Assembly: GCA_030390025.1 (NCBI GenBank) | Contig: CM059431.1 | Coordinates: 147,934,001-147,998,000, forward strand | Origin: Squalus acanthias | Taxonomy: Eukaryota | DNA length: 64,000 nucleotides | Direction of reading: 5' to 3' | Shown here: positions 331-49,692 of the stretch, one piece after another | How positions within the stretch are numbered: the stretch's first letter is position 1 | Layout of the letters: every line of letters begins with the position of its first letter | Translations under genes and position numbers: made by a program | Notes under the pieces: model-generated | What the model saw: the letters and a program-made list of their open reading frames with translations, nothing else | Told to the model about the DNA's origin: nothing | Databases searched by the model: none

Positions 331-936
331 ACAAAACAGGACGGGACTAGGTTCCATTTACGGGCTATGTTGACTAGTTTCTCTCATCCAGTGTAGGGCC
401 GATATCTGGCGAAATATCAGCATTTGATGTTAAATTAATTTAATTATAAATCCTCCAATTTGACCCCATTTTTAAAAATTCTCTCAACGTTTACATATGT
501 CACACAGCAACCCCGATAGCAGTCACTTTCCTCAGGGATATTGCAACCACTCCCACCAGGATGCTCTAAACAACAACTCCAACGGGCGATACAACCTGTA
601 CCGCCAGTGGAGCGCTACCGCCCAAATCAGTTTCCTCCACCGCAGTGCGCGTCCAACCAACGAAAATGATGCATCATCAGGCCTGGTTTTTGACCCCGTC
701 GCTAACATGGAAATAGAACAGCAAGGATCTATATTTCAATTCCAGGGCTTCCACGTGATGACTCAGTGAAGCTGTCAGTCAATGCACCACAGCCATCACA
801 GAAGGAAGGAGGCAAGTTGGGATAGAAATGAAGGGTGATCATAAACAGCAGGTAGTCAACGCTGATTTCCAAGCGGCATATTGATGCAGAAATTTGACTT
901 GTGCGCATGTACGAAATTGGCGGTCGAAGTCGGGAA

Positions 937-3900
937 GAGTGGGAAATGGGAGATAGTGCTCGGGGGGTGTGGAGAATGGGAGATAGTGCTCGGGGGTGTG
1001 GAGAATAGGAGATAGTTCTCGGGCGGAGTGGTGAATGGGAGATAGTACTCGGGGGGAGTGGGGAATGGGAGATAGTGCTCGTATTCATGGAGAATGAGAG
1101 ATAGTGCTCGGGGGGTAGTGGAGAATGGGAACATTTGCTCGTGGGGAATGGAAAATGTGGGATAGTGTTCGGGAAGTGTGGAGAATGGGAAATAGTGCTC
1201 GGGGGGAGTGGAGAATGGGAGATAGTGCTCGTATTCATGGAGAATGGGGGATAGTGCTCGAGCGGAGAGGAGAATAGGAGATACTTCTCGGGCGGAGTGG
1301 TGAATGGGAGATAGTACTCGGGGGGAGTGGGGAATGGGAGATAGTTCTCGGCGGGAGTGGAGAATGGGAGATAGTGCTCGGGGGGTGTGGAGAATGGGAG
1401 ATAGTGCTCGGGGGGAGTGGAGAATGGGGGATAGAGCTAGGGGGGAGAATGGGAGATAGTGCTCGGGGGGAGTGGAGATTGGGGGATAGTGCTCGGGGGG
1501 AGTGGAGAATGGGAGCTAGCGCTCGGGGGTAGTGGAGAATGGGAGATAGTGCTCGGGGGGAGTGGATAATGGGAGATAGTGCTCTGGGGGAGTGGAGAAT
1601 GGGAGATAGTGCTGGGGGGTGTGGAGAATAGGAGATAGTTCTCGGGCGGAGTGGTGAATGGGAGATAGTACTCGGAAGAAGTGGGGAATGGGAGATAGTT
1701 CTCGGCGGGAGTGGAGAATGGGAGATAGTGCTCGGGGGGTGCGCAGAATGTGGGAGAGTGCTCAGGGGGAGTGTAGAATGGGAGATAGTGCTCGGGGTGA
1801 GTGGAGAATGAGAGATAGTGCTCGTATTCATGGAGAATGAGGGATAGTGCTCAGAGGGGGTGGAGAATGGGGGATTAAGCTCGGGGGGAATGGAGAATGG
1901 GGGATATTGCTCGGGGGGAGTGGAGAATGGGGGATAGTGCTCGGGGGTAGTGGAGAATGGGCGATAGTGCTCGGGGGGGGGGTGGTGAATGGGAGATATT
2001 ACTCGGGGGGAGTGGAGAATGGGAGATAGTGCTCGGGGGAATGGAAAATGGGAGATAGTGCTCGGGGGGAGTGGAGAATGGGCGATAGTTCTCGGGTGGA
2101 GTGGAGAATGGGGGATAGTGCTCGGGGGGAGTGGAGAATGGGGGATAGTGCTCGGGGTGAGTGGAGAATGGAAGATAGTGCTCGTATTCATGGAGAATGA
2201 GGGATATTGCTCGGGGGCAGTGGAGAATGGGAGATTAAGCTCGGGGGGAATGGAGAATGGGGGATATTGCTCGGGGGGAGTGGAAAATGTGGGATAGTGT
2301 TCGTGAAGTGTGGAGAATGGGAGATAGTGCTCGGGGGAAGTGGACAATGGGAGATAGTGCTCGTATTCATGGAGAATGGGGGATAGTGCCCGAGCGGAGT
2401 GGAGAATGGGAGATAGTTCTCGGGCGGAGTGGTGAATGAGAGACAGTGCTCGGGGGGAGTGGAAAATGGGAGGTAGTTCTCTGCGGGAGTGGAGAATGGG
2501 AGATAGTGCTCGGGGGGAGCGGAGAATGTGGGATAGTGCTCGGGGGGAGTGTAGAAAGGGAGATTGTGCTCGGGGGTGTCGAGAATGGGAGATAGTGCTC
2601 GGGGGGAGTGGAGAATGGGAGGTAGTGCTCGGGGGGGGGAGTTGAGAATGGGAGATAGTGCTCGGGGGGAGTGGAGAATGGGAGATAGTGCTCGGGGGGA
2701 GTGGAGAATGGGAGATAGTGCTCGGGGGGAGTGGAGAATGGGAGATAGTGCTCGTATTCATGGAGAATGAGGGATAGTTCTCAGAGGGGGTGGAGAATTG
2801 GAGATTAAGCTCGGGGGGAATGGAGAATGAGGGATATTGCTCGGGGGGAGTGGAGAATGGGGGATAGTGCTCGGGGGGATTGGTGAATGGGAGATATTAC
2901 TCGGGGGGAGTGGAGAATGGAGATAGTGCTCGGGGGGAGTGGAAAATGGGCGATAGTGCTCGGGGGGAGTGGAGAATGGGCGATAGTGCTCGGGTGGAGT
3001 GGAGAATGGGGGATAGTGCTCGGGTGGTGCGGAGAATAGGAGATAGTGCTCGGGTTGAGTGGAGAATTGGAGATAGTGCTCGTATTGAAGGAGAATGATG
3101 GATAGTGCTCAGAGGGGGTGGAGAAAGGGAGATTAAGCACGGGGGGAATGGAGATTGGGGGATATTGCTCAGGGGGAGTGGAGAATGGGAGAGAGTGCTC
3201 GTATTCATGGAGAATGGGGGATAGTGCTCGGGGGGTGCGGAGAATAGGAGATAGTGCTCGGGTTGAGTGGAGAATTGGAGATAGTGCTCGTATTGATGGA
3301 GAATGATGGATAGTGCTCAGAGGGGGTGGAGAAAGGGAGATTAAGCACGGAGGGAATGGAGAATGGGGGATATTGCTCATTGTGGTAGGAGAATAGGAGT
3401 TAGTGCTCGGGGGGAGTGGAGAATGTGGGATAGTGTTCGGGAAGTGTGGAGAATGGGAGATAGTGCTCGGGGGGAGTGGAGAATGGGGGATAGTGCTCGG
3501 GGGAGTGGAGAAAGGGAGATTGTGCTCGGAGGGAGGTGAGAATGGGGGATTGTGCTCGTGGGGAGTGGAGTATGGGAGAGAGTGCTCGGGGTTAGTGGAG
3601 ATTGGGAAATATTGCTCTGGGTGTGTGGAGAATGGGTAATATTGCTACGGGGGAGTGGAGAATGGGAGATAGTGCTGGGGGGGATTGGAAAATGGGAGAT
3701 AGTGCAAGGGGGGAGAATGGGAGATAGTGCTCAGGGGGAGTGGAGAATGGGAGATAGTGCTCGTATTCATGGAGAATGAGGAATAGTGCTCAGGGGGGGT
3801 GGAGAATGGGAGATTAAGCTCGGGGGGAATGGAGAATGGGCGATTAAGCTCGGGGGGAATGGAGAATGGGGGATATTGCTCGGGGGAGTGGAGAATGGGA

Positions 3901-6900
3901 GATTGTGCTCGTATTCATGGAGAATGAGGGATAGTGCTCAGGGTGGGTGGAGAATGGGAGTTAGTGCTCGGGGGGAGTGGATGATGTGGGATAGTGTTCG
4001 GGAAGTGTGGTGAATGGGAAATAGTGCTCGGGGGAGTGGAGAATGGGGGATAGTACTCGGGGGGAGTGGAGAATGGGAGATAGTGCTCGGGGGGGAGTGG
4101 TGAGAGGGAGATAGTGCTCGAGGGAGTGGAGAATGGGGGATATTGCTCGGGGGAGTGGAGAATGGGAGATAGTGCTCGGGGAGAGTGGAGAATGGGGGAT
4201 AGTGCTCGGAGGGAGCGGAGAATGGGAGATAGTGCTCGGGGGGGAGTGGAGATTGGGAGGTAGTGTTCGTGGAGAGTGGAGAATGGAGGATCGTGCTCGG
4301 GGGGGAGTGGCGAATGGGGGATAGTGATCGAGGTGAGTGGTGATTGGGAGATCGTGCTCGGGGTGAGTGGAGAATGGGAGATTAAGCTCGGGGGGAATGG
4401 AGAATGGGGGATATTGCTCGGGGGGAGTGGAGAATGGGAGATAGTGCTCGTATTCATGGAGAATGAGGGATAGTGCTCAGGGTGGGTGGAGAATGGGAGT
4501 TAGTGCTCGGGGGGAGTGGAGAATGTGGGATAGTGCTCAAGATGAGTGGTGAATGGGAGATAGTGCTCGGGGGGAGTGGAGAATGGGGGATAATGCTCGG
4601 GGGGAGTGGTGAAAGGGAGATAGTGCTCGGGGGGAGTGGAGTATGGGAGAGAGTGCTCGGGGGGAGAGGAGAATGGGAGATAGTGAACTGGGTGTGTGGA
4701 GAATGGGGAATATTGCTCCGCGGGAGTGGAGAATGGGGAATATTGCTCCGGGGGAGTGGAGAATGGGAGATAGTGTTCGGGGGGATTGGAAAAATGGGGA
4801 TAGTGCTCGGGGGGAGTGGAGAATGGGGGTTTGTGCAAGGGGGGAGAATGGGAGATAGTGCTCGGGGAGAGTGGAGAATGGGAGATATTGCTCGGGGGGA
4901 GTGGAGAATGGGAGATAGTGCTCGGGGGCAGAGGAGAATGGGAGATAGTGCTCGGGGGGAGAGGAGAATGCCGGATAGTGCTCGGGGTGAGTGGACAATG
5001 GGGGATAGTACTCGGGTGGAGTGGAGAATGAGAGATAGTGCTCGGGTGGAGTGGAGAATGGGAGATAATGCTCGGGGTAGTGGAGAATGGGAGATAGTGC
5101 TCGGGGGGAGTGGACAATGGGAGATAGTGCTGGCGGGTGTGGAGAATGAGGAATAGTGCTCGGGGGGAGTGGAGAATGGGAGATAGCGCTCGTATTCATG
5201 GCGAATGAGAGATAATGCTCGGGGGTAGTGGAGAATGGGAGATAGTGCTCGGGGGGAATGGAGAATGTGGGATAGTGTTCGGGAAGTGAGGAGAATGGGA
5301 GATAGTGCTCGGGGGGAGTGGAGAATTGGAGATAGTGTTCGGGAGGAGTGGAGAATGGGAGATAATGCTCGGGGGGAGTGGAGAATGGGAGATAGTGCTC
5401 GGGGGGAGTGGAGAATGGGAGATAGTGCTCGTATTCATGGAGAATGAGGAATAGTGCTCAGGGGGGGGTGGAGAATGGGAGATTAAGTTCGGGGGTAATG
5501 GAGAATGGGAGATTAAGCTCGGGTGGAATGGATAATGGGGGATATTGCTCGGGGGGAGTGGAGAATGGGAGATTGTGCTCGTATTCATGGAGAATGAGGG
5601 ATAGTGCTCAGGGTGGGTGGAGAATGGGAGTTAGTGCTCGGGGGGAGTGGAGAATGTGGGATAGTGTTCGGGAAGTGTGGAGAATGGGAGATAGTGCTCG
5701 GGGGAGTGGAGAATGGCGGATAGTGCTCGGGGGGAGTGGTGAGAGAGAGATAGTGCTCGAGGGAGTGGAGAATGGGGGATATTGATCGGGGGGAGTGGAG
5801 AATGGGAGATGGTGCTCGGGGAGAGTGGAGAATGGGGGATAGTGCTCGGAGGGAGGTGAGAATGGGAGATAGTGCTCGGGGGGGAGTGGAGATTGGGAGA
5901 TAGTGTTCGGGGGAGTAGAGAATGGAGGATAGTGCTCGGGGGGATGGGTGAATGGGGGATAGTGCTCGGGGGGGGAGTGGAGAATGGGGGATAGTGATCG
6001 AGATGAGTGGTGATTTGGAGATCGTGCTCGGGGTGCATGGAGAATGGTGAGATTAAGTTCGGGGGGTATGGAGAATGGGGGATATTGCTCGGGGGGAGTG
6101 GAGAATGGGAGATAGTGCTCGGGGGGAGAGGAGAATGGGAGATAGTGCTCGGGGGGAGAAGAGAATGCCGGATAGTGCTCGGGGGGAGTGGACAATGGGG
6201 GATAGTGCTCGGGTGGAGTGCAGAATGAGAGTTAGTGCTCGGGAGGAGTGGAGAATGGGAGATAGTGCTCGGGGGTAGTGGAGAATGGGAGATAGTGCTC
6301 GGGGGGAGTGGACAATGGGAGATAGTGCTGGCGGGTGCGGAGAATGGGGAATAGTGCTCGGGGGGAGTGGAGAATGAGAGGTAGCGCTCGTATTCATGGC
6401 GAATGAGAGATAGTGCTCGGGGGTAGTGGAGAATGGGTGATAGTGCTCGGGGGGAATGGAGAATGTGGGATAGTGTTCGGGAAGTGTGGATAATGGGAGA
6501 TAGTGCTCAGGGGGAGTGGAGAATTGGAGATAGTGCTCGGGTGGAGTGGAGAATGGGAGATAGTGCTCCGGGGTAGTGGAGAATGGGAGATAGTGCTCGG
6601 GGGGAGTGGAGAATGGGAGATAGTGCTCGTATTCATGGAGAATGAGGAATAGTGCTCGGGGGGGGCGGTGGAGAATGGGAGATTAAGCTCGGGGGAATGG
6701 AGAATGGGAGATTAAGCTCGGGGGGAATGGAGAATGGGGGATATTCCCCGGGGGATAGTGCTCGGACGGAGTGGAGAATGGGGATAGTGCTCGGGGGGAG
6801 TGGAGAATGGGAGATAGTGCTCGAGGGGAGTGGAGAATGGGAGATCGTGCTCGCGGGGAGTGGAGAATGGGAGATAATGCTCGGGGGGAGTGGAGAATGG

Positions 6901-9900
6901 GTGATAGTGCTCGGGGGGAGTGGAGAATGGGGGATAGTGCTCAGAAGGAGTGGAGAATGGGAGATAGTGCTAAGGGGAGTGGAGAATGGGAGATAGTGCT
7001 TGGATAAGTGGAGAGTGGGTATAGTGCTCGTGGGGTGTGAAGAATGGGAGATAGTGATCGGGGGGAGTGGAGAATTGGAGATAATGTTCAGGGGGAGTGG
7101 ATAATGGGAAATAGTGCTCGGGGGGAGTGGAGAATGTGGGATAGTGCTCGGGTAAGTGAAGAGTGGGAATAGTGCTCGGGGGGTATGGAGAATGGGAGAT
7201 AGTGCTCGAGGGGAGTGGAGAATGGGAGATAATGCTCGGGGGGAGTGGATAATGTGAAATAGTGCTCGGGGGGAGTGGAGAATGGGAGATAGAGCTCGGG
7301 GGGATTGGAGAATGGGAGATAGTGCTCTGGATGAGTGGAGAATGGGGAATATTGCTCCGGGGGAGTGGAGAATGGGAGATAGTGCTCGGGGGGAATGGAA
7401 AATGGGGGAAAATGCTCGGGGGAGTGGAGAATGGGGGATAGTGCTCGGGGGGAGTGGAAAATATGGGATAGTGCTCGGGGGCAGTGGAGAATGGGAGATA
7501 GTGCTCGGGGGAGTGGAGAATGGGAGATAGTGCTCGGGTAAGTGGAGAGTGGGAATAGTGCTCGGTGGGTGTGGAGAATTAGAGATAGTGCTCTGGGGGA
7601 GTGGAGAATGGGAGATATTGCCCGGGGGGAGAGAAGAATGGGGGATAGTGCTCGGGCGGGAGTGTACAATAGTAGATCGTGCTCAGGGGGGAGTGGAGAA
7701 TGGGGAAGATTGCGACGGGGGAGTGGAGAATGGGAGATAGTGCTCGAGGGGAGTGGATAATGGGAGATAGTGCTCGGGGGGAATGGAAAATGGGGGATAG
7801 TCCTCGGGGGGAGTGGAGAATGGGGGATAGTGCTCGGGGGGAGTGGAAAATATTGGATAGTGCTCGGGGGCAGTGGAGAATGGGAGATAGTGCTGGGGGG
7901 AGTAAAGAATGGGGGATAATGCTCGTGCGGGAGTGGAGAATGGTAGATAGTTCTCGGGGGGAGTGGAGAATGGGGGATAGTGCTCGGGGGGAGTGGAGAA
8001 TGGGAGATACTGCTCGGGGGGAGTGGAGAATGGGGGATAGCGCTCGGGGGGAGTGCAGAATGGGAGACATTGCTCGGGGGAGTGGAGAATGCGGGATAGT
8101 TCTCCGGGGGAGTGGAGAATGTGCGATAGTGCTCGGGGGGAGTGGAGAATGGGAGATAGTGATCGGGGGGAGTGGAGAATGGGAGATAGTGCTCGGGTGA
8201 GTGGAGAATGGGAGATAGTGCTGAGTGGAGTGGAGAATGGGAGATAGTGCTCGGGTAAGTGGAGAGTGGGATTAGTGCTCGGGGGGTGTGTAGAATGTGA
8301 GATAGTGCTCGGGGGGAGTTCAGAATGGGAGACATTGCTCGAGGGGGAATGGAAAATGTGCGACAGTGCTCGAGGGGAGTGGCGAATGGGGGATAGTGCT
8401 CGGGCGGAGTGGAGAATGGGCGATAGTGCTCGGGGGGAGTGGAGAATGCGGGATAGTGCTCGGGCGGAGTGGAGAATGGGCGATAGTGCTCGGGTGGAGT
8501 GGAGAATGGTAGATAGTGCTCGGGGGGAGTGCAGAATGGGCGATAGTGCTCGGGGGGAGTGGAGAAAGGCGATAGTGCTCGGTTGGAGTGGAGAATGGGA
8601 GATAGTGCTCGGGGGGAGTTTAGAATGGCGATAGTGCTCGCGCGGAGTGGAGAATGGTAGATCGTGCTCGGGGGGAGTGGAGAATGGGAGATAGTGCTCG
8701 GGGGGAGTGGAGAATGGGAGATAGTTCTCGGGGGGAGTGGATAATGGGAGAGAGTGCTGAGGGGAGTGGAGAATGGGAGATAATGCTCGGGGGGAGTGGA
8801 TAATGGGAAATAGTACTCGGGGGGAGTGGAGAATGGGGGATAGTACTCGGGCGGGAGTAGAGAATAGTAGATCGTGCTCGGGGGGGAGTGGAGAATGAGA
8901 GATAGTGCTCGGGGGGAGTGCAGAATGGGAGATAGAGCGCGGGGGGAGTGGAGAATGGGGGATAGTGCTCGGGGGGAGTGGAGAATGGGTTAGTTCTCGG
9001 GTGGAGTGGAGAATGGGAGATAGTGCTCGGGGGGAGTGGAGAATGGCGATAGTGCTCGGTTGGAGTGGAGAATGGGAGATAGTGCTCGAGGGGAGTTTAG
9101 AATGGCGATAGTGCTCGCGGGGAGTGGAGAATGGGAGATACTGCTCGGGGGTTGTGGAGAAATGGGGATCGTGGTCGGGGGGAGTGAAGGTTGTGGGATA
9201 GTGCTCGGGGGGAGTACAGAATGGAAGACATTGCTCGCGGGGGAATGGAAAATGTGCGAAAGTGCTCGAGAGGAGTGGCGAATGGGAGATAGTGCTCGGG
9301 GGAGTGGAGAATGCGGGATAGTGCTCGGGGGGAGTGGAGAATGGGAGATAGTGCTCGGGGGGAGTGGAGAATGGGAGATAGTGCTCGTGGGGAGTGGAGA
9401 ATGGGAGATAGTGCTCGGGGGGGGAGTGGAGAATGGGAGTTAGTGCTCGGGGGGAGTGGAGAATGGGAGATAGTGCTCGGGGGGAGTGGAGAATGGGAGA
9501 TAGTGCTGGGGGCAGAATGGGGGATAGTGCTCGGGGGCGTGGAGAATGGGAGATAGTGCTCGCCGGGTGGGAAGAATGTGTGATAATGCTCGGGGGAAGT
9601 GGAGAATGGGAGAAAGTGCTCGGTGGGAGTGGAGAATGGAGGATAGTGCTCGGGGGGTGTGGAGAATGGGAGATAGTGCTCGGGGGGTGTGGAGAATGGG
9701 AGATAGTGCTCGGGGGCTGTGGAGAATGGGAGATAGTGCTCGGGGGCAGAATGGGGGATAGTGCTCGGGGGAGTGGTAAATGGGAGATAGTGCAGGGGGG
9801 GAGTGAAGAATGGGAGCGTGTGCTCGGGGCGTGTGGAGAATGCGGAAAATTGCTCGGCGGGAGTGGAAAATGGGGGATATTGCTCGGGAGGAGTGGGATA

Positions 9901-11490
9901 TGGGGGAAAGTGCTCGGGGGGAGTAGAGAATGCAGGATAATGCTCGGGGGGAGTGGAGAATGGGAGATAGTGCTCGGGGGGAGTGGAGAATGGGCGATAG
10001 TGCTCGGGTGGAGTGGAGAATGGGGGATAGTTTTCGGGTGGAGTGGAGAATGTGGGATAGTGCTCGGAGGGACTGGAGAATGGGAGATAGTGCTCGGGGG
10101 TAGTGGAGAATGGGAGATAGTGCTCGTGGGAGAATGGGGGATCGTGCTTGGGGGGAGTGGAAAATGGTAGATTATGCTCGGGGTGTGGAGAATGGGAGAT
10201 ATTTCAGGGGGGGAGTGGAGAATGGGAGATAGTGCTCGGGGTTTGTGGAGAATGGGGAATATTGCTCGGGGGGAGTGGAGATTGGGGGATAGAGCTCGGG
10301 AGGAGTGGAAAATGGGGGATAGTGCTCGGGGGAAGTCGAGAATGCGGGATAGTGCTCGGGGGGAGAGGAGAATGGGAGACAGTGCTCGGGGGGAGTGGAG
10401 AATGGGGGACAGTGCTCGGGGGGAGTTGAAAATGGGCGACAGTGTTCGGGGGGAGTGCTGAATGGGAGATAGTGCTCGGGGGGAGTGGAGAATGGGGGAT
10501 AGTGCTCGGGGGGATGGAAAATGGGAGATAGTGCTCCGGGGGTGTGGATAATGGGGGATAGTGCTCGGGGGAATGGAGAATGGGAGATAGTGCTCGGGGG
10601 AGAATGGGTGATAGTGCTTGGGGGGAGTGAAAAATGGGAGATTATGCTCGGGGGGAGTGAAGAATGGGAGATACTGCTCGGGGTGTGTGGAGAATGGGGA
10701 ATATTGCTCGGAGGGAGTGGAGAATGGGGGATAGTGCTCGTGAGGAGTGGAAAATGGGGGATAGTGCTTGTGAGGAGTGGAGAATGGGAGATAGTGCTCG
10801 GGGGGAGTGGAGAATGGGAGATAGTGCTCGGGGGCAGAATGGGGGATAGTGCTCGGGGGCGTGGATAATGGGAGATAGTGCTCGCCGGATGGGAAGAATG
10901 GGTGATTATGCTCGGGAGAAGTGGAGAATGGGAGAAAGTGCTCGGGGGGAGTGGAGAATGGAGGATAGTGCTCGGGGGGATGGAGAATGGGAGATAGTGC
11001 TCGGGGGGTGTGGAGAATGGGAGATAGTGCTCGGGGGCTGTGGAGAATGGGAGATAGTGCTCGGGGGCAGAATGGGGGATAGTGCTCGGGGGAGTGGTAA
11101 ATGGGAGATAGTGCAGGGGGGGAGTGGAGAATGGGAGCGTGTGCTCGGGGCGTGTGGAGAATGCGGAAAATTGCTCGGGGGAGTGGAAAATGGGGGATAT
11201 TGCTCGGGAGGAGTGGGATATGGGGGAAAGTGCTCGGGGGGAGTAGAGAATGCGGGATAGTGCTCGGGGGGAGTGGAGAATGGGAGATAGTGCTCGGGGG
11301 GAGTGGAGAATGGGCGATAGTGCTCGGGTGGAGTGGAGAATGGTGGATAGTTTTCGGGTGGAGTGGAGAATGTGGGATAGTGCTCGGAGGGAATGTAGAA
11401 TGGGAGATACTGCTCGGGGGTAGTGGAGAATGGGAGATAGTGCTCGGGAGGAGAATGGGGGATAGTGCTCGGGCGAGTGGAGAATGGGAG
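937..11490 (+). repeat. G-rich 30-bp minisatellite array (ggagaatgggagatagtgctcggggggagt)n, ~10.5 kb
   Basis: Directly visible tandem units. The 30-bp period explains the repetitive WRMGDSARGE / SGEWEIVLGG / STISHSPLPP ORFs. Confidence 0.97.
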
Positions 11491-11508
11491 AAACAGGGAT
11501 TTCAGAAG

Positions 11509-14390: not shown

Positions 14391-15915
14391 TAGGATCGGA
14401 TCCCAGTGGATTACATTCATGAGGTTGGATCCCAACGGATTAAAGGAATGCGATCCGATCCCAGTGAGCTAAAGGAATAGGATCTGATCCAAGAGAATTT
14501 AAAGGAATAGGATGAGGTCCGAGTGAATTAAAGGAATTGGATAATATCCCAGTGAATTAAAGGAATTGAATCGGATCCCAGTGAATTAAAGTAATTGATC
14601 GGATTCCAGTGAATGAGAGGAATGGGATCGGATTACAGTTAATTGAAGGATAGGGATCGGATCCCAGTGAATTAAAGGAATTGAATCGGATCCCAGTGAT
14701 TTAAAGGAATGTGGTCGGATCCCAGTGAATTCAAGAATTGAATCGAATAACAGCGAATTAAAAGAATGGGGTCAGAACCCAGAGGATTAAAGGACTGGAG
14801 TCGGACCAAAGGGATGAAAGGAATGGCTTCGGATTCCAATGAATTAAAGGAATGGGATCGGATCCTGTAGAATTACAGGAATATGGTCGGATCCCAGCGA
14901 ATTAAAGGAATTGGGATCGATCTCAGTGAATTAAAGGAATGGTCTCAGATCCCAGTGAATTAAAGGAATTGAATCAGATCCCAGTGAATTGAAGGAATGC
15001 GAATCGATCCCAGTGAATTAAATGAATGGAATCAGATTCCAGTGAATTAAAGGAATGGAATCAGATCCCAGTGATTTGAAGGAAAGGAATCAGATCCCAG
15101 TGAAATGAAGAAATGGAATCAGATTCCAGTGAATTGAAGGAATGGAATCAGATCCCAGCGAATTGAAGGAATGGAATCAGATACCAGTGAATTGAAGGAA
15201 TGGAATCAGATCCCAGTGAATTGAAGGAATGGAATCAGATCCCAGTGAATTGAAGGAATGGAATCAGATCCCAGTGAATTGAAGGAATGCGAATCGATCC
15301 CAGTGGATTAAGGAATGGAATCAGATCCCAGTGAATTGAAGGAATGGAATCAGATCCCAGAGAATTGAAGGAATGGAATCAGATCCCAGTGAATTGAAGG
15401 AATGGAATCAGATCCCAGTGAATTAAAGGAATGGAATCAGATCCCAGTGACTTAAAGTTGTGATGGGATCCCGGAGAATTAAAGGAATGGGATCAGTTCC
15501 AAGTGGATTAAAGGAATGGGATCGTATCCCAGAGAATTAAACGATTGTGATCGGATCCTAGAGAATTAAAGGAATGGGATCGGAAGCCAAGGATTAAAGG
15601 AATGGAATCGGATCCCAATGGATTAAATTCATGGGGTTGGATCATAATGGATTGAAGGAATGGGATCGGATCGCAGTGAATTTAAAGGAATGGGATGAGG
15701 TCCCAGTGAATTAAAGGAATTGGATCGAATCACAGTGAATCAATGGAATGGGGTCGGATCACAGTGAATTAATGGAAAGGGGTCGGATCCCAGTGAATTA
15801 AAGGAATTGGATCGAATCATAGCGAATTAACGATAGGTGATCATCATTCAGTGAATTAAAGGAATGGTGGGATCCCTGAGAATTTTGGAAATTGGGTCAG
15901 ATCCCAGTGAATTAG
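14391..15915 (+). repeat. 29-bp minisatellite (ggaatggaatcagatcccagtgaattgaa)n
   Basis: Visible tandem units, most homogeneous at about 15100-15450. Confidence 0.95.
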
Positions 15916-16842
15916 AAGATAAGATCATAAGAAATAAGAGCAGGAGTAGGCCTTACGGCCCCTCGAGCCTGCTCCGCCAGTCAACAAGATCATGTCTGAT
16001 CATCGACCTCAACTCGACATTCCCGCCTGATCGCCATATCCCTTGATTCCCCTAGAGTCCAAAACTGTATTTACCTCAACCTTGAATAAACTGAAAGACT
16101 CAGCATTCACAGCCTTCTGGGGCAAAGAATTCCAAAGATTCAAAACCCTCTGAATTAAGAAATTCCTCCTCATCTCAGTCTTAAATGGCCTACCATTTAT
16201 ACTGAGACTATGCCCCCTAGGTGTAGACACTCCAGCCAGGGGAAACAACCTCTCAACATCTACCCTGTCAATACACTTCAGAATCTTGTACCTTTCAATG
16301 AGATCACCTCTCATTCTTCTAAACTCCAGAAAGTATGGGCCCATTCTACACAATCTCTCATCTAAGGACAGCCCTCTCATCCCAGGAATCAATCTAGTGA
16401 ACTTTCATTGCACCGCCTGCAAGGCAAGTATATCCTTGCTTAGATAAGGAGTCCAAAACTGTGCACAGTTCTCCAGGTGTGGTCTCACCAAGTCCCAGTA
16501 CAATTGTAGCAAGACTTCCTTACTCTTATACTCCAACCCATTTGCAATAAAGGCCAACAAGCCATTTGCCTTCCTGATTGCTTGCTGTACCTTCATGCTA
16601 GCTTTCTGGGTTTCTTGCACGAGGACATCCAAATCTCTCTGAACACCAACTGTTGAAAGTTTCTCACCATTTAAAATATATTCTGTTTTTCTATTCTTCC
16701 TACCAAAGTGAATAACCTCAAATTTCCCTACATTATACTCCATCTGCCGCCTTACTGCCCACTCACTTTCTCTATCTATATCCCTTTGCAGACGATTTGT
16801 GTTCTCCTCACAAATTACTGACTCACCTAGATTTGTATCATC
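15916..16842 (-). mobile_element. 5'-truncated CR1 LINE (RT C-terminus, 3'UTR, short-repeat tail)
   Basis: DDTNLG...RLQRDIDR...LVRPHLENCAQFW and RRMRGDLIE...TRGH-like motifs; cataagaaataaga tail near 15926. Confidence 0.9.
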
Positions 16843-18447
16843 AGTATCGGGCAGAATGGGATAATACAATACCATTCCTGACAGGGTAACGTTGTTCTGT
16901 TCCTGTAAAAGGCAATCAAGTTTCACCGGGTACACCTGTACCAATCCCCTGACTTTACACATAGTCATTGTAAAATGCGAAGTGGACATTGCTCTTAGAT
17001 GCCGATCAGTCACCCACGAGGGTAGCTTCCCTTCAACAAGGCTTTGCAGGTTTACACGGGCTTGTTCCACTAACCAAGATCCATACATTACATCATTTCG
17101 CGCAGCCTCACTAGAGGCCTTGCGATCCTCCTTTAAAATTTGATTTATATTTTTAGCATGGGATTCTAAATAGTTAACCACGTCCTGTAGAAGAATGGTT
17201 GTAATTTGGTCCTCCTTTAATTCCTCCTGTTACAGACCATTCATTTTATTCAAAGTTTCCCTTAAACGATTTCTAACTGCCTTTACGGATTGATCCAAAT
17301 GAGCCAAATCAAGCCTATTAACGAGGGAGGTTCCGGTATTAAAAGCAATGGCTGCATCATTTATCAGAACCTGTGGTGTTCTGACATGGTCCCCTGTAAC
17401 CCCGTAACCAACTCAATTGTCTTCAATGATCTCGGTACTCTTTTCCTCAAAGTTATTGTTAGATCCATTAACTTCCCCTGAGTCCTTGCGATATAACGGC
17501 TCTAATTCCGATTCCGCCAGGGTTGTGTTGGCCCTTTCCCAAAATCCCTCTATTAATTCCCGCATCGTTCTCCCATATCACAGCGCTGTTTCTGGTTTGC
17601 ACCAGTTTGGGAGTCCCACCTCGGTCAGTTTTAACATTACAGGTATCACTTCATGATGCAGAGCATGGTACAATATCATCCGAGTTGGGATTAGCTCTAA
17701 CCTATTTGCCGGTCCCGGGGTGTGTTTGGGACAGACAACCCGGGTTTCCTTTTGTTCTTCCCGCGGTTGTGATCTATTCGTACGGGTGGGGTGGGGAGTT
17801 TAGGATGGATTTCAATGCCACCGTGTGTATTATTCCGTTTTTACATTCCTGCATATGATAATGTGAGCAACCCTTCGAACCCCTACACGGCCTTCCCTCC
17901 CTGTCCACGAAGCATCGGTCGGGACCCCTGTCATCTGTTCCATTCGCTTGGATGCTTTGATCCCCTATCCAGTGGACGGGAGCTCCACAAAGCGGCTCTG
18001 CGTCCCCGAAGGATTTATGCATCCATAGATTCCCTCATGCTCCTGCCACCTCTGTGGGCAACATAACAGAGTGTCTCCCGCTGCTCGGGATTGGGTCGAG
18101 CTTCCTACATTCCCCCGAGGGTTCCCTATCTGATAGTACCTTGAATGGTCACTTGGTTCTGCTTGTAAGAACCACACACTTGGCCCGGTGGGGCGCTCTT
18201 TGCATTTATGCACACCCTCCCTCCCTTGCGGGACCTCACAAGTGGTAACCCATACTGTCGCTGAACATGCGGTTTCACATTCACCCTTGATGTACTGGAG
18301 GGTAATGTTTCCAGTGGCGTCCCACGGTTGTGTCTCCAGGGCAAATGAAATCGACCTGTTATAGGGAAAATAGTGGTGGTCCAATAGGCCAAATAGGCAG
18401 ATGTGGAATAGCAGAATCCCGATCATTGGCCAGAACAATTCTTTCAT
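16843..18447 (-). pseudogene. Endogenous viral envelope / class I fusion (F-type) glycoprotein relic
   Basis: Manual translation gives one frame from ATG 18447 to ~16843 with 7 in-frame stops and no frameshift. It has a hydrophobic N-terminus (MKELFWPMIGILLFHICLFGLL), a Cys-rich region with NxS/T sites, RTPQ/VLINDAAIAFNTGTSLVNRLDL (degenerate cleavage site plus fusion peptide), a heptad-like helix, and LQSLVEGKLPSWV. Confidence 0.65.
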
Positions 18448-18504
18448 TTTATATAGTTCAGACTCTCAATACTGATGTATTATTGGAACACAAAAAAGGG
18501 ACTT

Positions 18505-18650
18505 CCTTCACTGTAACACTCTGATATAACCCACAACAATCACTGCAGCACTCTGATATCCCCTACACTTCTCACTGTAACACTCTGACATTTCCCACAT
18601 CCAAAATGTAACACTCTGATATACCAGACACCCAAACTGTAACACGGATA
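18505..18650 (+). repeat. Short array of ~32-bp cactgtaacactctgatataccccacaccc repeat
   Basis: Four degenerate units; same family as 35790-36470. Confidence 0.7.
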
Positions 18651-33149: not shown

Positions 33150-34576
33150 ATGGGGCGACCAATTATTCTGCTGATCAAAGAGATTTACTACCCGATTCTC
33201 GCTGCCGTCGTTGTCCTCGGTGAGCCAATGTAACCTGTTTGTTGTTAATCTGTCTTAACTGTCATCTTGTTCCTGCAGCCTGTTGGATAAGGTAACGTGT
33301 TTCCCGGATGTCAACATTACACAGTCGGTAGTTACCGGAACAAACTCGTGAACTGTGAGTCCGCACTTTCTGCTTTCCCTATAATGCGATAATTTTACTG
33401 ATGTTACAATAATCTTTGAAGGTCCAACACGGGATTTTAGCTGATTTCCGGACCGTCTTGTCACCCCGTGCAGAGTGGGCAGTACAGCGGTTCATCAAAA
33501 TGTGTGGGTGTGTTTCCCAGGTCATGGCTCCAATATTAATCCTGTTCTCACACTGCTCCATGTTGATAATCACACTGACTGGACTGAGATGCTCTCAACA
33601 GGTATTTCCATATCTATTTCAATCAGACACGGGGACATTATTTCTCTCCTCTCTCTTTCTTACAGCGAACATGGTGACAATTGTGATTCTCTCCCGAGGA
33701 AACTGCGGCCTTTCCAAGTGTATCTCGGTCTACATGGTGGCCATGGCAAAAGCGGATCTACTGGTCATGATCATTAATGTAATGGTGTATCGTATTTTCA
33801 GTTTTCACTTTCCACTTTCATTCCTGTCCCACACTCCCGTGTGTAGGCTAATTATATACATGGCTACTGTCACCTTCGATTTGTCTGTTTGGTTCACCGT
33901 CTCCTTCACGTTTGATCGATTTGTAGCTCTCTGCTACCAGAAGTTTAAAACGAGGTATTGGACCGAGAGATCTGCGACTGCGATTATAGCAACCTTCTCT
34001 GTTTTGAGTGGTTTTAAGGATATTCCATTTTTGTTTGCATATGAACCTCAGCAAATAATCAACAATCAACATTGGGGCTGCGGATCAAGTCTGGCTTTCT
34101 TTCACTCCCCTCTAGGTGTGGGGTACGTCTGGTTTCACAGCGCCTGGTTGGTTTGGCTTCCCTTTACTTTAATTCTCCTCTTTAATTCATTAACCGTCCG
34201 CCGTATTTTAGTGGCCAATAGAGCCCGCAGAGGACTGCGGGGTCACAGGACTGAGAATCACAGCGATCCAGAGATGGAGAGCCGGAGGAAATCCATCATT
34301 TTACTGTTCACTATATCGGGCAGTTTTATACTGTTGTGGTTGACAGCTGCCGTGAGTTTTGTAACTACCAGACTGACAAACACCAATTATTACCGAGGCG
34401 ATCACACAGACCCTGGATATATCGCCACGGAAGCCGGAACATTGCTGAAGTTTTTGAGCTGCTTTCAAAACCCGTGTATTTATGCAGCGACCCAGAGGAA
34501 ATTCAGAGCAGAGCTGAAGAATGTGGTGAAATCTCCCTGGACACTGATTCTGAGATTAGTTAGAAATAGCGGATAA
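33150..34576 (+). CDS. GPR139/GPR142-like class A GPCR, 2 exons (33150-33219, 33666-34576), 326 aa, intact
   Basis: Exon 1 MGRPIILLIKEIYYPILAAVVVL + G|gtgag; acceptor ctctctttcttacag|; phase-1 join gives ANMVTIVIL. Seven hydrophobic segments, AMAKADLL (TM2), FDRF (DRY position), TM3/ECL2 Cys, FILLW (TM6), NPCIY (TM7). The supplied ORF start at 33416 is intronic. Confidence 0.9.
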
Positions 34577-42400: not shown

Positions 42401-42782
42401 CGCTGAAACTTACCGCTGCGACCACCTGCGCGCGCAGATTGTGAAGTCATTCCATGGTGCAACGCCCTTGGGGCGCCCCGGAGCAGAAATTGAGTGGCGC
42501 CCCCTGCCTTACCGCCTGGCGCGTCCAACGACCGGAAGACTGGAACGTTATCAATCGGTGTGGGGCTGGGGGGGGGCGCTATTTAAAGGGGGCCTCTTCC
42601 TGTCTTTTTCTGTGGTCGACATTTATGCACCACTCGTTCTGAGAGAGAGAGAGAGATTCGGAGAGAGAGAGCGAGAGACTTCTACATTGACTCAACGCTT
42701 TGTGAGGTAGTTTGGCCTAGTTCATCCTAACTTTGCTGCTACTTTAGTTGCTGTACCTCATTACTTTTCTGGCAAAGAGAAT

Positions 42783-43943
42783 ATGGGGGCTGCAATGATT
42801 GGGGGCGTCGTCCTGCTCCAGCTCAATCGGAGGATAGTGAGACACAGACAGAGAGTGGCAATGATGGCCAGACGGAGGAGGTCCATCAGGCGCATGTACA
42901 GGAGAGCTTACCCTCCCAGGGTATATCGTGAACAGCTCTCCTACATCCATATGTCCGAGGAGCTGTGTTTGCGAAGGCTGCGATTCAGCAAGGAGGTGGT
43001 CACTGAGCTCTGCCACCTGCTGCAGCCAGATCTGCAGCCTCAGCTGAGGTCCAGGACGTCTCTGTCGGTGGCAGTGAAGGTCACAGTGGCTTTGAACTTC
43101 TACGCCACTGGCTCATTCCAAGCTGCTGTTGGGGACCTCGCCAATATCTCCCAGTTTGCGGTGCATCGCTGCATCCGGCAGGTCACCAATGCCCTCTTCA
43201 CAAGGAGACGAGACTTCATCTCCTTCCCTATGACCCCAGACAAGCAGCATGACCGTGCTATGGGCTTTGCGAGGGTAGCGGGCTTCCCCATGGTGCAGGG
43301 CGCCATTGACTGCACGCATGTGGCTTTGCGTGCTCCGCGAGAGAATGCAGAGGAGTTCCGGAACAGAAAGGGGTTCCATTCCTTGAATGTGCAGTTGGTC
43401 TGTGACCACAGACAGGTGATTCTCGCTGTCAATGCCCACTATCCGGGCAGCTGCCACCATGCTTTCATCCTGCACCAGAGTACTGTGGCAGAAATTTTCG
43501 AGGCACCGCATCAGCCAGTTGGTTGGCTTCTGGGGGACAAGGGGTACGCACTGAGCACCTGGCTGATGACACCGCTCCGTGCGCCAAACACACCTGTTGA
43601 GCTGCGGTAGCAGGAAAGCCAACAAGCAACCAGGAACATTATTGAGCGTACAATCGGCGTGCTCAAACAACGATTCCGCTGTCTGGACCATTCCGGAGGA
43701 GCCCTGCAGTACTCGCCTGAGCAAGTTTCGAAATTCGTAGTCGTGTGCTGCATGTTGCACAACATGGCAATCCTCAGGACGCAGCCAATGCCACCAGGCC
43801 TTGCAGCACCACAAGAGGAGGAGGAGGAAGAGGAGGAACAGGACGAGGACGATGAACAGCAGCAGCAGCAAGGCAGGAGGGCGGCCCACAATGGTCAAAC
43901 TGCAAGGGCCGTCCGTCAACGACTAATAGCAAGCCGCTTCTAG
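42783..43943 (+). pseudogene. Harbinger (HARBI1-family) DDE transposase, premature TAG at 43608-43610
   Basis: GAIDCTH, NRKGFHSLNVQ, GDKGY, IERTIGVLKQRFRCL. Copy 2 has TAC at the stop codon. GSCHHA replaces the conserved GSxHDA. Confidence 0.92.
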
Positions 43944-44238
43944 GGCCCCTGCCATTGCTACAAACACGAATCAACCCAGCACGCAACCTCTAAGCCGGCC
44001 AAGGCACCAATAATTCCAACCACCAGCCATGTATATTTTGAATGCAGAAACTTATTTATTGTACAAACTCTGGGTGTGTCAATTCCTCATGACAAACTCA
44101 TAGAAATAAACACAAAAAAAACAGTCAATAACATAACTGGTTCTCACAACCTGGAGATAATGTCCAAAACACTAAACAAAAGTTGGGCCATGAACCTCGG
44201 CCTTTAATAAAAAAATGACCAGCATTTTGGCACACCTC

Positions 44239-46115
44239 CTACATTTTGCCCTTCGAGGGTGATCTCCTTCCCTTGCGCACTTCCCCCCTTCTAACCCTAC
44301 TGCTCCTCCGTAATGGGACCTCAGTGGCTGCAGCAAGGCTGATGGAAGGCTGCTGCTCGTCAGACCCTGACACTGCAGATGCCCCTGAAGGACGGCCTCG
44401 ACCACTTCTGGGCCTGGAGGGCCCGGCTGCAGACTGCACCAACTCTGCATGGGCGGCAGCAGTCTGTCCTACAGGCGGTGGCAAGTGCAGTCGAGAAGTG
44501 ACAGTGTTGGCAGCAGGAATGCTGTCATCGTGAGAGAGGACAGCAACTCCCTGCTCACCCGACACACTGGCACTCCCACGGGGCAGCACTTCAGCATCCG
44601 GAGCAATTTGCCGGAGAACAGATTGCTGGCCTGCTGCGGCGCGGTGACAGCCCCGGGGACATGTGCACGAACCATCGAGGATGGCAGCAGTCAGTGCTCG
44701 CGTGGCCTCAATCTGAGTCTGCATGAGAGCAGTCTCAGATGGGTTCCTGGCAGCCAGTGACTGAATTGCAGCACGAAGCTTTAGTGTGGCATCCGCCTGT
44801 GCTACAGCGAAGTGCTCCACACTCCTTGCCAGTGCCTCAATGCATTCGGGCACCCTTCCCACTGCACCCATGAGCTCAGTGTGCATGCCCACCGCCTGGC
44901 TGTTCATTTCTGCAATCAGCCGCTCCCCCTCTGCGTCCATTGCAGTAGGAGTGTCTGGCATACTCTCCCTCTGGGGAGAAGGCTCCCGTTCTTCCCTCCC
45001 CCCGCCATGGCGTTGCTGCAGCCCGCTGGGTCCTGGAGCTTCACCATCATCAGCCCCTTCCCCCCTGCTCCCCTCCGGGGAAGGCGTGTTCCCAGTGTGG
45101 CCATGGGCTTCCTCGGGAGAGGGTGGCACTGATGCTCCGGCTTCCTCTTCCTCCTCAGCTGCAGCATCACTCCCAGTGGCAGCTTCAGGGACCATCTCCT
45201 CAGCTGGTGAATCACCATCTGAAAGCAGGGAGGTACAAGAGTGGCTTTAGCGTGAGGACAGGGTGGCAGTAAGGGAGGAATAAGTGCAGCGAGTTAGCAA
45301 GTTGGATTGAAAGTGTCAAAGGCTGGTATTGTGAGGGACAAGTGGAAGCACAGAGGACAAAAAGGTGATGACCTTACCATTGCTGTCCACAACGGGGTCG
45401 GCGTCCCCAGTGGCGACGGGTCCGATCACCCAGCTTGCCACAATCCTGTGGACGCGCTCCTCCAGATCGCTGAGGGGTTGCAGCTGAAGCCGCCCTCCAC
45501 CCGTCCGTTGCTGCTGTCTCCGATTATGAGCCAGCTTAGCCTGCAAGAAAAAGGACAGCATCTGAGTAAATATACAGCCATGGTCTTGCCTGATGTGCCT
45601 CCCATAGGTGAATAGCCCTTACAATATGCAGCCATGGTCTTGCCTGATGTGCCTCCCATAGGTGAATAACCCTTACAATATGCAGCCATGGTCTTGCCTG
45701 ATGTGCCTCCCATAGGTGAATAGCCCTTACTGTATGCAAAGTGTGGAATGTGTGTGTGTGTTTGATGAAAGGGCCATAGGTGTTGCATGAGTGTTGTGCA
45801 TTGGGGTTTTAAGACCCTCTGGCCATATAGTGAGGTTGAGATGGAGGGATGGACAGGTATTGAGAAAAAGCCACTCACCCTGACGACCCGAGTGAGGTCG
45901 TTGAACTTTTTGCGGCACTGAACATGGGTCCTGGGCACCATGCTCCTGGAGGAGATGCTCTGAGCCACCTCCCTCCACACTCTTCTGAACTCGCGTGGCA
46001 AAGGCCTCCTGCCACTCTCCGGGAACAGCATGCATCGTCTGCGCTCCACTGCGCCAACCAGAGCATCCAAGGCCCGCTCGGTGAAGCGATGAGCGCGTTC
46101 TCTCACCCTCTCCAT
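44239..46115 (-). CDS. Harbinger Myb/SANT-like DNA-binding partner, 3 exons (46115-45879, 45540-45378, 45218-44239), 459 aa
   Basis: RF..RALDAL...VWREVAQ...QCRKKFNDL trihelix motif, then RTGGG; canonical GT-AG introns with phases 0 and 1 give an uninterrupted frame. Confidence 0.85.
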
Positions 46116-47569
46116 GCTTGTCAGCAAAATGGATTACAGGTCTCTCCAGGCTGAGATTCAAGGCTGCAATGAGCAGGGTGTGGCTGGGGAGCAAGTGCCC
46201 CCCCCCCTCCCCCCCCGCTTTAAGAAGTGTCCGGCGCCAGTGTGTCTGTGTTCCCTCGCTAACTGGCAGCAGCTGCGCTGCGCTCGTGCGCTGAGGTAGC
46301 GCCTCACTTCTAGGCCTTTGCGCCTTAAGAGAGGTGTGCAGCGCCTAATTTAGCACTCCACTCACCTCCCGGGGCGGTAAAAGTGAAGTTTCCTGTCAGT
46401 GCCTATAATTAGCGCCAGGCGCTAATATTTGCGCTCGGACGATATTTGCGCCCCAAATGGGGCGCGACCTAATTTCTACCCTTTTATCTTTGTATTTTTA
46501 CGATTTTTCCTTGTTTTGGTCTTTTTTTCTGTTACACTCTTATTTTTAATGATTCAGTCCCTTCCTGTCATACTCTGGTTATTATTTCACCCGTCTCCAG
46601 CCTGCTCTATTGCTTTCTCATTTATCATTGACTTTTAATTTTCCTGCTTATCTGGATCCTCCCCCCCCCCCACTTTTTACTTTAAAGCCCTCTCTACAGC
46701 CTTAGTTATTCCATTTGCCAGGACTCTAGCCTCAGCATAATGCAAGTGCAGCCCTTCGAAACGGAATAGTTCCCTCTTATCCGAGTACTGGTGCAAGCGC
46801 CCCACAAATCGAAACCCATTTCTCCCACACCAGTCTTTGAGCCACCCGTTCATTTATCTGATCTTATTTACCCGATGCAAATTCGCTCGTGGCTCAGGTA
46901 GTAATCCAGATATATTACATTTGTGGTTATGCTTTTTAATTTAACCCCTCGCGAGACATACTCTCTCAGCAGAACCTCTTTCTTTGTCCAACCTATGTCA
47001 TTGGTACCTCCGTGGACCATGACAACTGGATCTTCCCCCTCCCACTCCAAGTTTCTCTCCAGCCCAGAGGAGATGTCATAAACTTGGTTATGATGTTTTA
47101 TGAATGGTCATAATGATTTTTTAAGGGTTATGATGTTTTATTAATGGTCATAATGATTTATAAAGGATTGTAATGAAATATTAGTAGTCATTATGAGTTA
47201 GAAAGGTTTATTGGGGTAGAAATTAGGTCGCGCCCCATTTGGGGCGCAAATATCGTCCGGACGCAAATATTAGCGCCTGGCGCTAATTATCGGCACTGAC
47301 AGGAAACTTCACTTTTACCGCCCCGGGAGGTGAGTGGAGCGCTAAATTAGGCACTGCACACCTCTCTTAAGGCGCAAAGGCCAAGGAGTGAGGCGCTAAC
47401 TCAGCGCACGAGCGCAGCGCAGCTGCTGCCAGTTAGCGAGGGAACACAGACACAATGGCGCCGGACACTTCTTAAAGCGGGGGGGGGCACTTGCTCCCCA
47501 GCCACACCCTGCTCATTGCAGCCTTGAATCTCAGCCTGGAGAGACCTGTAATCCATTTTGCTGCCAAGC

Positions 47570-49398: not shown

Positions 49399-49692
49399 GA
49401 GGTGTGCCAAAATGCTGGTCATTTTTTTATTAAAGGCCGAGGTTCATGGTCCAACTTTTGTTTAGTGTTTTGGACATTATCTCCAGGTTGTGAGAACCAG
49501 TTATGTTATTGACTGTTTTTTTGTGTTTATTTCTATGAGTTTGTCATGAGGAATTGACACACACAGAGTTTGTACAATAAATAAGTTTCTGGATTCAAAA
49601 TATACATGGCTGGTGGTTGGAATTATTGGTGCCTTGGCCGGCTTAGGGGTTGCGTGCTGGGTTGATTCGTGTTTGTAGCAATGGCAGGGGCC

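What the first reader, a model, noticed from the sequence alone, without database searches (positions are those of the whole stretch)
16843..18447. Hidden 1.6-kb single-frame relic of an F-type viral envelope glycoprotein
Seen: ORFs 17965-18447 and 16405-17181 share a frame, and reading through 7 stops gives ~535 codons with no frameshift. The order is signal-peptide-like start, Cys-rich region, LELIPTRMILYHALHHEVIPVMLKL, RTPQ|VLINDAAIAFNTGTSLVNRLDL, a long amphipathic helix, then QARVNLQSLVEGKLPSWV. Established: pneumo/paramyxovirus F, baculovirus F/errantivirus Env and lokiretrovirus Env share this cleavage site-fusion peptide-heptad layout. Inference: this is the env of a lokiretrovirus-like or env-bearing LTR element, or a captured viral F gene. 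No gag, pol or LTR is visible beside it.
Basis: partly seen in the sequence, partly recalled or inferred. Interest (0 to 1): 0.7.

Follow-up and report, generated by a model that had tools for sequence, protein, structure and literature searches.

The report
Dead shark retrovirus F-type envelope fragment
This is a broken, cut-off envelope gene of a many-copy endogenous retrovirus, likely of a shark or ray and likely of the snakehead-retrovirus group, whose protein family is predicted to fold like the fusion (F) protein of measles- and RSV-type viruses, which bears on where retroviral envelopes came from.

Summary
The relic is real. Window 18447-16843 (minus strand) reads 535 codons with 7 stops where about 30 are expected. 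It belongs to a family with 103 matches in this genome. Ten of 11 dispersed copies checked have an integrase just upstream, and copies with more flank show gag, protease, RT, tether, RNase H and LTRs, so it is a retroviral env. A predicted model of a sister-family Env matches paramyxo/pneumovirus F (Foldseek E 1.7e-11; Z 12.4), and the family profile hits foamy-virus Env (E 9e-4). Dispersed copies show purifying selection (dN/dS 0.25). This copy and its local duplicates drift (1.04), so it is dead, not co-opted. This scan already found the F fold and Ig-like head on the young sister family elsewhere in this genome; this locus is an older relative.

The parts
16847..18507 (-). Whole retrovirus-derived stretch: about 60 nt upstream of env plus the 5' two-thirds of env; no LTR, gag or pol left
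   Evidence: blastn ~71-88% to 14 dispersed copies, edges at 16847-16851 and 18495-18507; no gag/pol/LTR/env-C-terminus match in the window
18364..18447 (-). Start codon and signal-peptide-like hydrophobic N-terminus (codons 1-28)
   Evidence: hydropathy peak 2.24 at residue 4; same start in other copies; no signal-peptide predictor was run
18019..18204 (-). Probable Ig-like domain of the surface part (C82...W92...GIYxC143)
   Evidence: C, W, GIY-C invariant in 6 of 6 rows of A3; A3 profile's best PDB hit CRTAM Ig domain E 6.7e-4, mostly Ig domains below; weak Ig_3 in relatives; window protein alone gives no Pfam hit
17790..18000 (-). Stretch out of the family frame between two compensating frameshifts; holds 4 of the 7 stops
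   Evidence: tblastn of 5 natural family ORFs and sliding per-frame scores
17533..17733 (-). F2-like strand and helix before the cleavage site (codons 239-305), with a true stop at codon 290
   Evidence: aligns to sister Env 238-~300, inside the range superposed on F, 245-660
17368..17379 (-). Decayed furin-type cleavage site (RTPQ)
   Evidence: 9 of 11 dispersed copies (L010-L020) have R-x-R-R here; 3 local duplicates have RTPR; R-x-x-R conserved in shark and frog relatives
17299..17367 (-). Predicted fusion peptide (codons 361-383)
   Evidence: follows the cleavage site; conserved across the family; role inferred from F proteins
17038..17298 (-). Long helical region, HRA-like (codons 384-470), with the oldest shared stop at codon 406
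   Evidence: helices 346-444 in the sister model; stop 406 in 9 of 9 local copies
15930..16842 (-). LINE (CR1-like; label recalled) RT 3' fragment that replaces the env 3' end; the anchor and HRB are missing
   Evidence: 70-77% nt to four other LINE pieces in the window; the same env-LINE junction in local duplicates L002 and L004
18508..19444 (-). Upstream flank: 32-bp tandem repeat, then a LINE RT fragment
   Evidence: TRF; RVT_1 E 1.7e-18

Best explanation
The stretch is the decayed, 3'-truncated env gene of an older lineage of a many-copy endogenous retrovirus, likely of the snakehead-retrovirus-like group in a cartilaginous fish, whose Env is predicted to be an F-type class I fusogen with a probable Ig-like head. 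Shown: gene order LTR-gag-PR-RT-tether-RNase H-integrase-env-LTR in other copies, 4-bp target duplications, a conserved R-x-R-R site, a C-terminal hydrophobic anchor in longer copies, and purifying selection on env among dispersed copies. Inferred: the ancestral Env was a type I membrane trimer that a furin-like protease cut before the fusion peptide; the N-terminal part with the Ig-like domain bound the target cell; and the heptad helices refolded into a six-helix bundle to fuse membranes, as in paramyxovirus F and foamy Env, letting the virus spread by germ-line reinfection. This copy then lost its pol, LTRs and 3' third among LINE insertions, gained stops and frameshifts, and was copied with its neighbourhood in local segmental duplications. 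It makes no working protein.
For: 103 tblastn-type matches in the own genome, 45-100% identity, on many contigs. Integrase C-half upstream in 10 of 11 dispersed loci and 0 of 9 local ones. L028 carries PR, RVT_1, RT_RNaseH (tether), RNase_H and integrase upstream of an env of this family. An old-family copy has LTRs 93.5% alike, gag and a 4-bp duplication. The sister-family Env (31% to the window protein over codons 112-535, E 1.6e-57) was modelled at mean pLDDT 64.5. Foldseek PDB: top hit hPIV3 F at E 1.7e-11, all 36 listed rows paramyxo/pneumovirus F. VIA-align: Z 12.4, rmsd 4.8 over 289 residues to Nipah F. The family profile's best PDB sequence hit is foamy Env 8RM1, E 8.6e-4, over ~200 positions. 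dN/dS is 0.25 over 91 dispersed pairs and 1.04 over 36 local pairs. RT hand count over 140 core positions of the sister RT against Dataset S2 of PMC7947760: SnRV 70, SFV 52, HERV-L 52, Loki-Lch 50, MuLV 49. Named env relatives are sharks, a skate and frogs.
Against: The window protein itself was not folded with success: a same-family ORF folded alone gave pLDDT 35.5, and the fold evidence comes from a 31%-identical sister Env (pTM 0.47; TM-scores only 0.3/0.5). No Pfam Fusion_gly or Foamy Env hit in the window protein, the relatives or 55 library hits; one sub-threshold Baculo_F hit, E 0.0011. Foamy Env is not among the top 50 fold matches. The SnRV placement is a hand count, not a tree; the tree had no SnRV, foamy or loki rows, and the best PDB RT hit is foamy (3e-42). 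The shark/frog FLERV sequences of PMC5512871 could not be compared. The receptor-binding role of the Ig-like domain and fusion activity are untested.
Confidence: 0.8

Rival explanations
1. Env of a foamy-like ERV (the shark/frog CmiFLERV-XtrFLERV clade, or the cartilaginous-fish foamy virus of Wang, Chen and Cui 2023), whose env had not been found.
For: Best PDB RT hit is foamy virus, 3e-42 against MLV 3e-35; the env profile hits foamy Env; 4-bp duplications; relatives in sharks and frogs match the host pair of that clade; PMC5512871 found only pol in the shark and frog elements.
Against: SnRV RT, absent from the PDB hit list, is much nearer than SFV by hand count (70 against 52 of 140). The sister Gag has a CX2CX4HX4C knuckle, which foamy Gag lacks. 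pol follows gag in frame behind one TGA in 3 of 3 young copies. Foamy Env is not in the top fold hits.
Confidence: 0.11
2. Env of a lokiretrovirus, which would be the first in cartilaginous fishes.
For: Same signal peptide - RxxR - fusion peptide - coiled coil - anchor layout and dual RNase H; 0 of 6 chondrichthyan genomes had loki in PMC7947760 Fig. S1, so it would be new; pol relatives are annotated NYNRIN-like, and loki integrase groups with CGIN1 (NYNRIN = CGIN1 recalled).
Against: The loki RTs read in Dataset S2 share a WP motif (one variant) and PFGY/PFGL...EF/DF motifs that this RT lacks. The frog and coelacanth pol hits carry the SnRV-type PTV/LDISNGFWS/PQGFH motifs, unlike Loki-Rca, -Xtr and -Lch. 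The Loki-Xtr Env seen has its cleavage site near residue 110-120, without the ~230 extra N-terminal residues.
Confidence: 0.04
3. A captured F gene of an RNA virus or baculovirus, or a host-domesticated env kept for a function at this locus.
For: Fold matches are to RNA-virus and baculovirus F proteins; at least 9 related copies cluster near this locus and on contig C1736.
Against: The family is physically part of proviruses. Local copies share stops (codon 406 in 9 of 9, codon 290 in 8 of 9) and evolve at dN/dS 1.04. The anchor is lost.
Confidence: 0.03

Closest known systems
Snakehead retrovirus (SnRV) and SnRV-like ERVs: clade Huo (PMC6001957, passages), CmiERV lineage I of elephant shark (PMC4422223, passages)
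   Same: Nearest RT by hand count; gag-pol in one frame across a stop; Gag with one zinc knuckle (SnRV features from PMC2717909 and PMC13517186 passages); SnRV-like ERVs are already known in a cartilaginous fish.
   Different: Readthrough codon is TGA here and UAG in SnRV; RT only ~50% identical; SnRV Env was not available to compare; no paper found describes an F fold or Ig-like head for this group's Env.
Foamy virus Env (PDB 8RM0/8RM1; PMC11468914, abstract, passages and section 9)
   Same: Retroviral Env with the paramyxo/pneumovirus F core; weak profile match in the TM subunit (E 8.6e-4).
   Different: Foamy Env has a receptor-binding domain inserted in SU and two membrane spans; here the extra part, with an Ig-like domain, lies N-terminal to the F core, and Gag and pol expression differ.
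Lokiretrovirus Env (PMC7947760, parts 1-2 of 4, passages, supplement parts 8 and 67-70)
   Same: F-like Env behind a pol with dual RNase H.
   Different: Different RT clade by motifs; loki Env matches Pfam PF00523 while this family does not; no long N-terminal extension in Loki-Xtr Env.
Paramyxo/pneumovirus F (hPIV3 1ztm, Nipah 8dmj, RSV 3rki) and lispivirus, baculovirus and walleye epsilonretrovirus glycoproteins in BFVD
   Same: Predicted fold over sister-Env residues 245-660.
   Different: 7-15% identity; about 240 extra N-terminal residues; encoded by a provirus.

Membership tests
Retroviral env (ERV) | lies downstream of pol (integrase) in an LTR-bounded element | tested here: met
   10 of 11 dispersed loci; LTR pairs and 4-bp duplications in 1 old-family and 3 young copies; not retained at the window locus
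Retroviral env (ERV) | pol with tether plus second RNase H | tested here: met
   RT_RNaseH(_2) then RNase_H in L028 and the sister pol
F-type class I fusogen | domain I-III core shared with paramyxo/pneumovirus F | tested here: met
   on the sister-family model: Foldseek E 1.7e-11; Z 12.4, rmsd 4.8, 289 aligned; carried over to the window by 31% identity
F-type class I fusogen | basic cleavage site followed by fusion peptide and heptad helix | tested here: met
   family: 9 of 11 dispersed copies R-x-R-R; decayed in the window copy
F-type class I fusogen | C-terminal membrane anchor | tested here: met
   hydropathy 2.81 and 2.31 near the C-termini of P0005 and P0006; absent from the window copy
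F-type class I fusogen | Pfam PF00523 or PF12259 match | tested here: not met
   only one sub-threshold Baculo_F hit in 1 of 55 relatives
F-type class I fusogen | trimer formation and membrane fusion | not testable with these tools
   needs bench work
Lokiretrovirus | RT falls in the loki clade (PFGY..EF, WP motifs) | tested here: not met
   motif comparison by eye with Dataset S2; no tree with loki rows
Lokiretrovirus | F-like Env and dual RNase H | tested here: met
SnRV-like (clade Huo) | RT groups with SnRV | tested here: inconclusive
   nearest by hand count, 70 of 140 against 49-52 for four others; no formal tree
SnRV-like (clade Huo) | gag and pol in frame across a stop; one Gag zinc knuckle | tested here: met
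   TGA-CTA junction in 3 of 3 young sister copies; knuckle visible in P0008 (Pfam zf-CCHC only E 0.3)
SnRV-like (clade Huo) | Env homologous to SnRV Env; accessory genes | not testable with these tools
   no SnRV Env sequence came from any call
Foamy viruses / FLERVs | Gag without Cys-His box | tested here: not met
   knuckle in sister Gag; foamy feature from PMC5210030 passage
Foamy viruses / FLERVs | RT in the foamy clade | tested here: inconclusive
   best PDB hit but lower than SnRV by hand count; XtrFLERV/CmiFLERV sequences not seen

The most novel reading that the evidence does not exclude
The F-type fusogen is the ancestral envelope of retroviruses. This SnRV-like shark/frog lineage adds a further deep branch with an F-fold Env to foamy viruses and lokiretroviruses, and walleye epsilonretrovirus Envs also matched the model (WEHV1 E 1.6e-11, WDSV E 2.9e-10). 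Gamma- and beta-type Envs would then be later replacements. That runs against the independent-acquisition scenario preferred in PMC9040795. Each lineage would have added its own attachment module, here an N-terminal Ig-like domain probably taken from a host gene.
Probability: 0.35. Interest if true: 0.8.

Novelty: new variant of a known kind. Interest (0 to 1): 0.47.

Why it matters
The locus itself is a dead fragment. The family matters because it puts an F-fold envelope, with a probable Ig-like head, on a retrovirus lineage (SnRV-like) whose Env has not been classed in the papers searched. With foamy and loki Envs, this makes the origin of the retroviral envelope testable by a structure-based tree. 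Standard ERV screens that demand a known Env domain would miss these genes: none of 55 relatives passes an Env or F Pfam threshold. The window's lineage also shows that the Ig-plus-F layout is older than the young sister family that this scan had noted, since it is shared across Envs only ~31-41% alike.

Tried and rejected
Pfam, PDB-sequence and word-index homolog searches with the window read-through found nothing; nor did the homolog search with the 586-aa family ORF. Single-sequence AlphaFold failed (pLDDT 35.5). The ESM Atlas gave one unnamed chordate cluster at 0.84 for the sister Env, a lead only; its 874-aa length equals zebra-finch Ovex1 ORF3, but that link was not tested. The window's own Ig-like region was not run through the Atlas. 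The RT tree (30 of 64 rows, the 34 most distant Gypsy-like rows dropped) joins the 9 rows of this shark-type family (8 from this genome, 1 unnamed database protein) at 100/99 but has no named reference viruses, so it cannot classify them. Sequencing runs: no RNA holder listed; no reads were laid. Earlier-findings look-ups by sequence and near this place gave nothing. The 1849-aa frame on contig C100 is a tandem repeat run on from env, not a longer gene. PMC9972966 (cartilaginous-fish foamy virus) is not held and was seen only as a title in a reference list; it may bear on the classification. Calcraft 2024 and Hart 1996 were not read. Literature searches that found no description of an F fold for SnRV-like Env; no search was aimed at Ig domains in Env. 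Supplements of bioRxiv preprints were not seen.

Full report
Observation. Window 18447-16843, minus strand, translates to 535 codons with 7 stops; the other five frames hold 14-35, and about 30 are expected from base composition (binomial p 4e-7 for one frame). The quoted motifs are there. Against five natural ORFs of the same family, codons ~150-220 match in a different frame, so the single frame survives only through two compensating shifts, and 4 of the 7 stops are off-frame readings; the true stops are at codons 290, 345 and 406. The lower ORF is a chimera: env ends near 16845 and runs straight into a LINE RT fragment (15930-16842) that is 70-77% like four other LINE pieces in the window (the CR1 label is recalled).

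It is a repeat family. Pfam, PDB and the word-index protein search gave nothing for the read-through. The own genome (3.7 Gb) gave 103 matches on many contigs, a floor because a stricter first look was used. Virus-derived DNA in the window spans 16847-18507 at about 71-88% identity to 14 dispersed copies; no LTR, gag, pol or env C-terminus is left anywhere in the 64 kb.

It is a retroviral env. Ten of 11 dispersed loci have the integrase C-half within 1.5 kb upstream; none of the 9 local loci do. Locus L028 shows protease, RT, a tether-type RNase H, a second RNase H and integrase ahead of an env of this family. An old-family copy on contig C12 has gag, pol, env, LTRs 93.5% alike and a 4-bp target duplication. 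Longer copies end in a hydrophobic anchor, and 9 of 11 dispersed copies have R-x-R-R where the window has RTPQ. A younger sister family with open genes shares the layout; its Env is 31% identical to the window protein over codons 112-535 (E 1.6e-57). A profile of ten own-genome env stretches found 55 proteins among 1.84 billion; of the 10 looked up, 9 had names, all sharks, a skate or frogs. The host is therefore inferred to be a cartilaginous fish.

It is F-type. A same-family ORF folded alone failed. The sister Env folded with a 51-row alignment reached mean pLDDT 64.5, mostly 80-95 over much of the core. All 36 listed Foldseek PDB rows are paramyxo- or pneumovirus F (best hPIV3 F, E 1.7e-11). 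VIA-align gives Z 12.4, rmsd 4.8 over 289 residues to post-fusion Nipah F, range 245-660. In BFVD the top hits are lispivirus-type glycoproteins, walleye retrovirus Envs, paramyxovirus F and baculovirus F. Independently of the model, the family profile's best PDB sequence hit is foamy Env (8RM1, E 8.6e-4), which is itself F-like (PMC11468914, abstract and section 9). The window copy covers sister positions 1-505, that is the leader, F2-like part, fusion peptide, HRA and the first strands after it, and lacks the rest. Against this: no Fusion_gly Pfam hit anywhere, modest TM-scores, foamy Env absent from the top fold rows, and the fold is inferred for the window from a relative. In front of the F core, the window protein shares C...W...GIYxC with five relatives, and their profile hits Ig domains (CRTAM E 6.7e-4). 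Earlier notes of this scan had described that Ig-like head and the F fold on the young family; I had seen weak Ig_3 hits before reading them, and they prompted the check on this locus.

Which retrovirus. PMC7947760 found none in 6 chondrichthyan genomes, so that would be new, but the RT does not fit. The loki RTs read in its Dataset S2 have PFGY/PFGL..EF/DF and WP motifs, whereas this family has PTVA, LDISNGFW, LPQGFHNSP and QYVDD. In PDB the RT is nearest to foamy virus (3e-42), then MLV (3e-35) and Ty3 (1.5e-23). By hand count over 140 core positions of the sister RT (76% identical to the old-family RT), SnRV matches 70, SFV 52, HERV-L 52, Loki-Lch 50 and MuLV 49. The sister Gag has one zinc knuckle and pol follows in frame behind TGA, as described for SnRV apart from the codon (PMC2717909 and PMC13517186 passages) and unlike foamy Gag. 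Nearest named pol relatives are frog and coelacanth proteins at 44-45%. My tree (30 of 64 rows) holds the family together at 100/99 but has no named viruses, so the SnRV-like placement is likely, not shown. SnRV-like ERVs are already known from elephant shark (PMC4422223), and clade Huo spans all vertebrate groups (PMC6001957). A shark/frog foamy-like clade known only from pol (PMC5512871) remains a rival I could not compare.

History of this copy. Over codons 223-424, 14 dispersed copies give mean dN/dS 0.25 (91 pairs; pairs are not independent), as expected if env was needed while the virus spread. The window and 8 local duplicates (95-99.5% alike) give 1.04 (36 pairs) and share stops (codon 406 in 9 of 9, 290 in 8 of 9). 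The gene was thus dead before the local duplications; two nearly identical copies may be very recent duplicates or, on the unplaced contig, another haplotype. Nothing points to co-option.

Mechanism. Inferred from F proteins and foamy Env: a signal peptide takes Env into the secretory path, it forms trimers, a furin-like protease cuts at R-x-R-R, the N-terminal part (with the Ig-like domain) binds the cell, and the fusion peptide inserts while HRA and HRB zip up. None of these steps was tested. The window copy can do none of this.

Verdict. F-type retroviral Envs are known (loki, foamy); an F fold on this lineage was not found in print, though this scan had already noted it on the young sister family. 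New variant of a known kind; interest 0.47. Papers were seen as passages or named sections as stated; none was read whole.

Noticed in passing
G000, e.g. loci L051-L056: A very young sister ERV family: well over 100 of the 150 listed RT matches are ~76% identical to the old-family RT, many in open frames of ~1500 codons; LTR pairs are 99.5-100% identical in 3 of 3 copies checked, with a TGA-CTA gag-pol junction. Already noted by this scan.
   Followed up: partly
(BFVD): Envs of walleye epidermal hyperplasia virus 1 and walleye dermal sarcoma virus (epsilonretroviruses) match the F-type model at E 1.6e-11 and 2.9e-10.
   Followed up: no
window 42711-51048: Two Harbinger-like DNA transposon copies (DDE_Tnp_4 transposase plus Myb/SANT ORF) in mirror arrangement around ~46.8 kb.
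   Followed up: no
window 33413-34576 (+) and 52123-52918 (-): Rhodopsin-family 7TM receptor ORFs, one apparently whole and one broken; the local env duplicates on C7 and C1736 may ride on a duplicated receptor cluster (inference).
   Followed up: no
window 930-11491 and 14393-15914: Long G-rich 30-bp satellite (355 copies) and a 29-bp array next to the LINE that cuts the env.
   Followed up: no
L051/L052: A young provirus sits inside an older related provirus in the opposite orientation.
   Followed up: no
L028 ~3300-7590: Old-family integrase interrupted by a ~4.3-kb insertion with partial similarity to the window's Harbinger-like element.
   Followed up: no
P0094 and P0078/P0082: Pieces of this Env family occur in annotated host gene models (a Heterodontus fbxo15 isoform; proteins with cadherin or zinc-finger domains), probably mis-joined exons or exonised ERV.
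   Followed up: no
cluster 5: A frog (Mantella) has a 16-member cluster of near-identical relatives of this Env (12 of the 15 listed are 677 aa), pointing to a young related ERV in amphibians.
   Followed up: no
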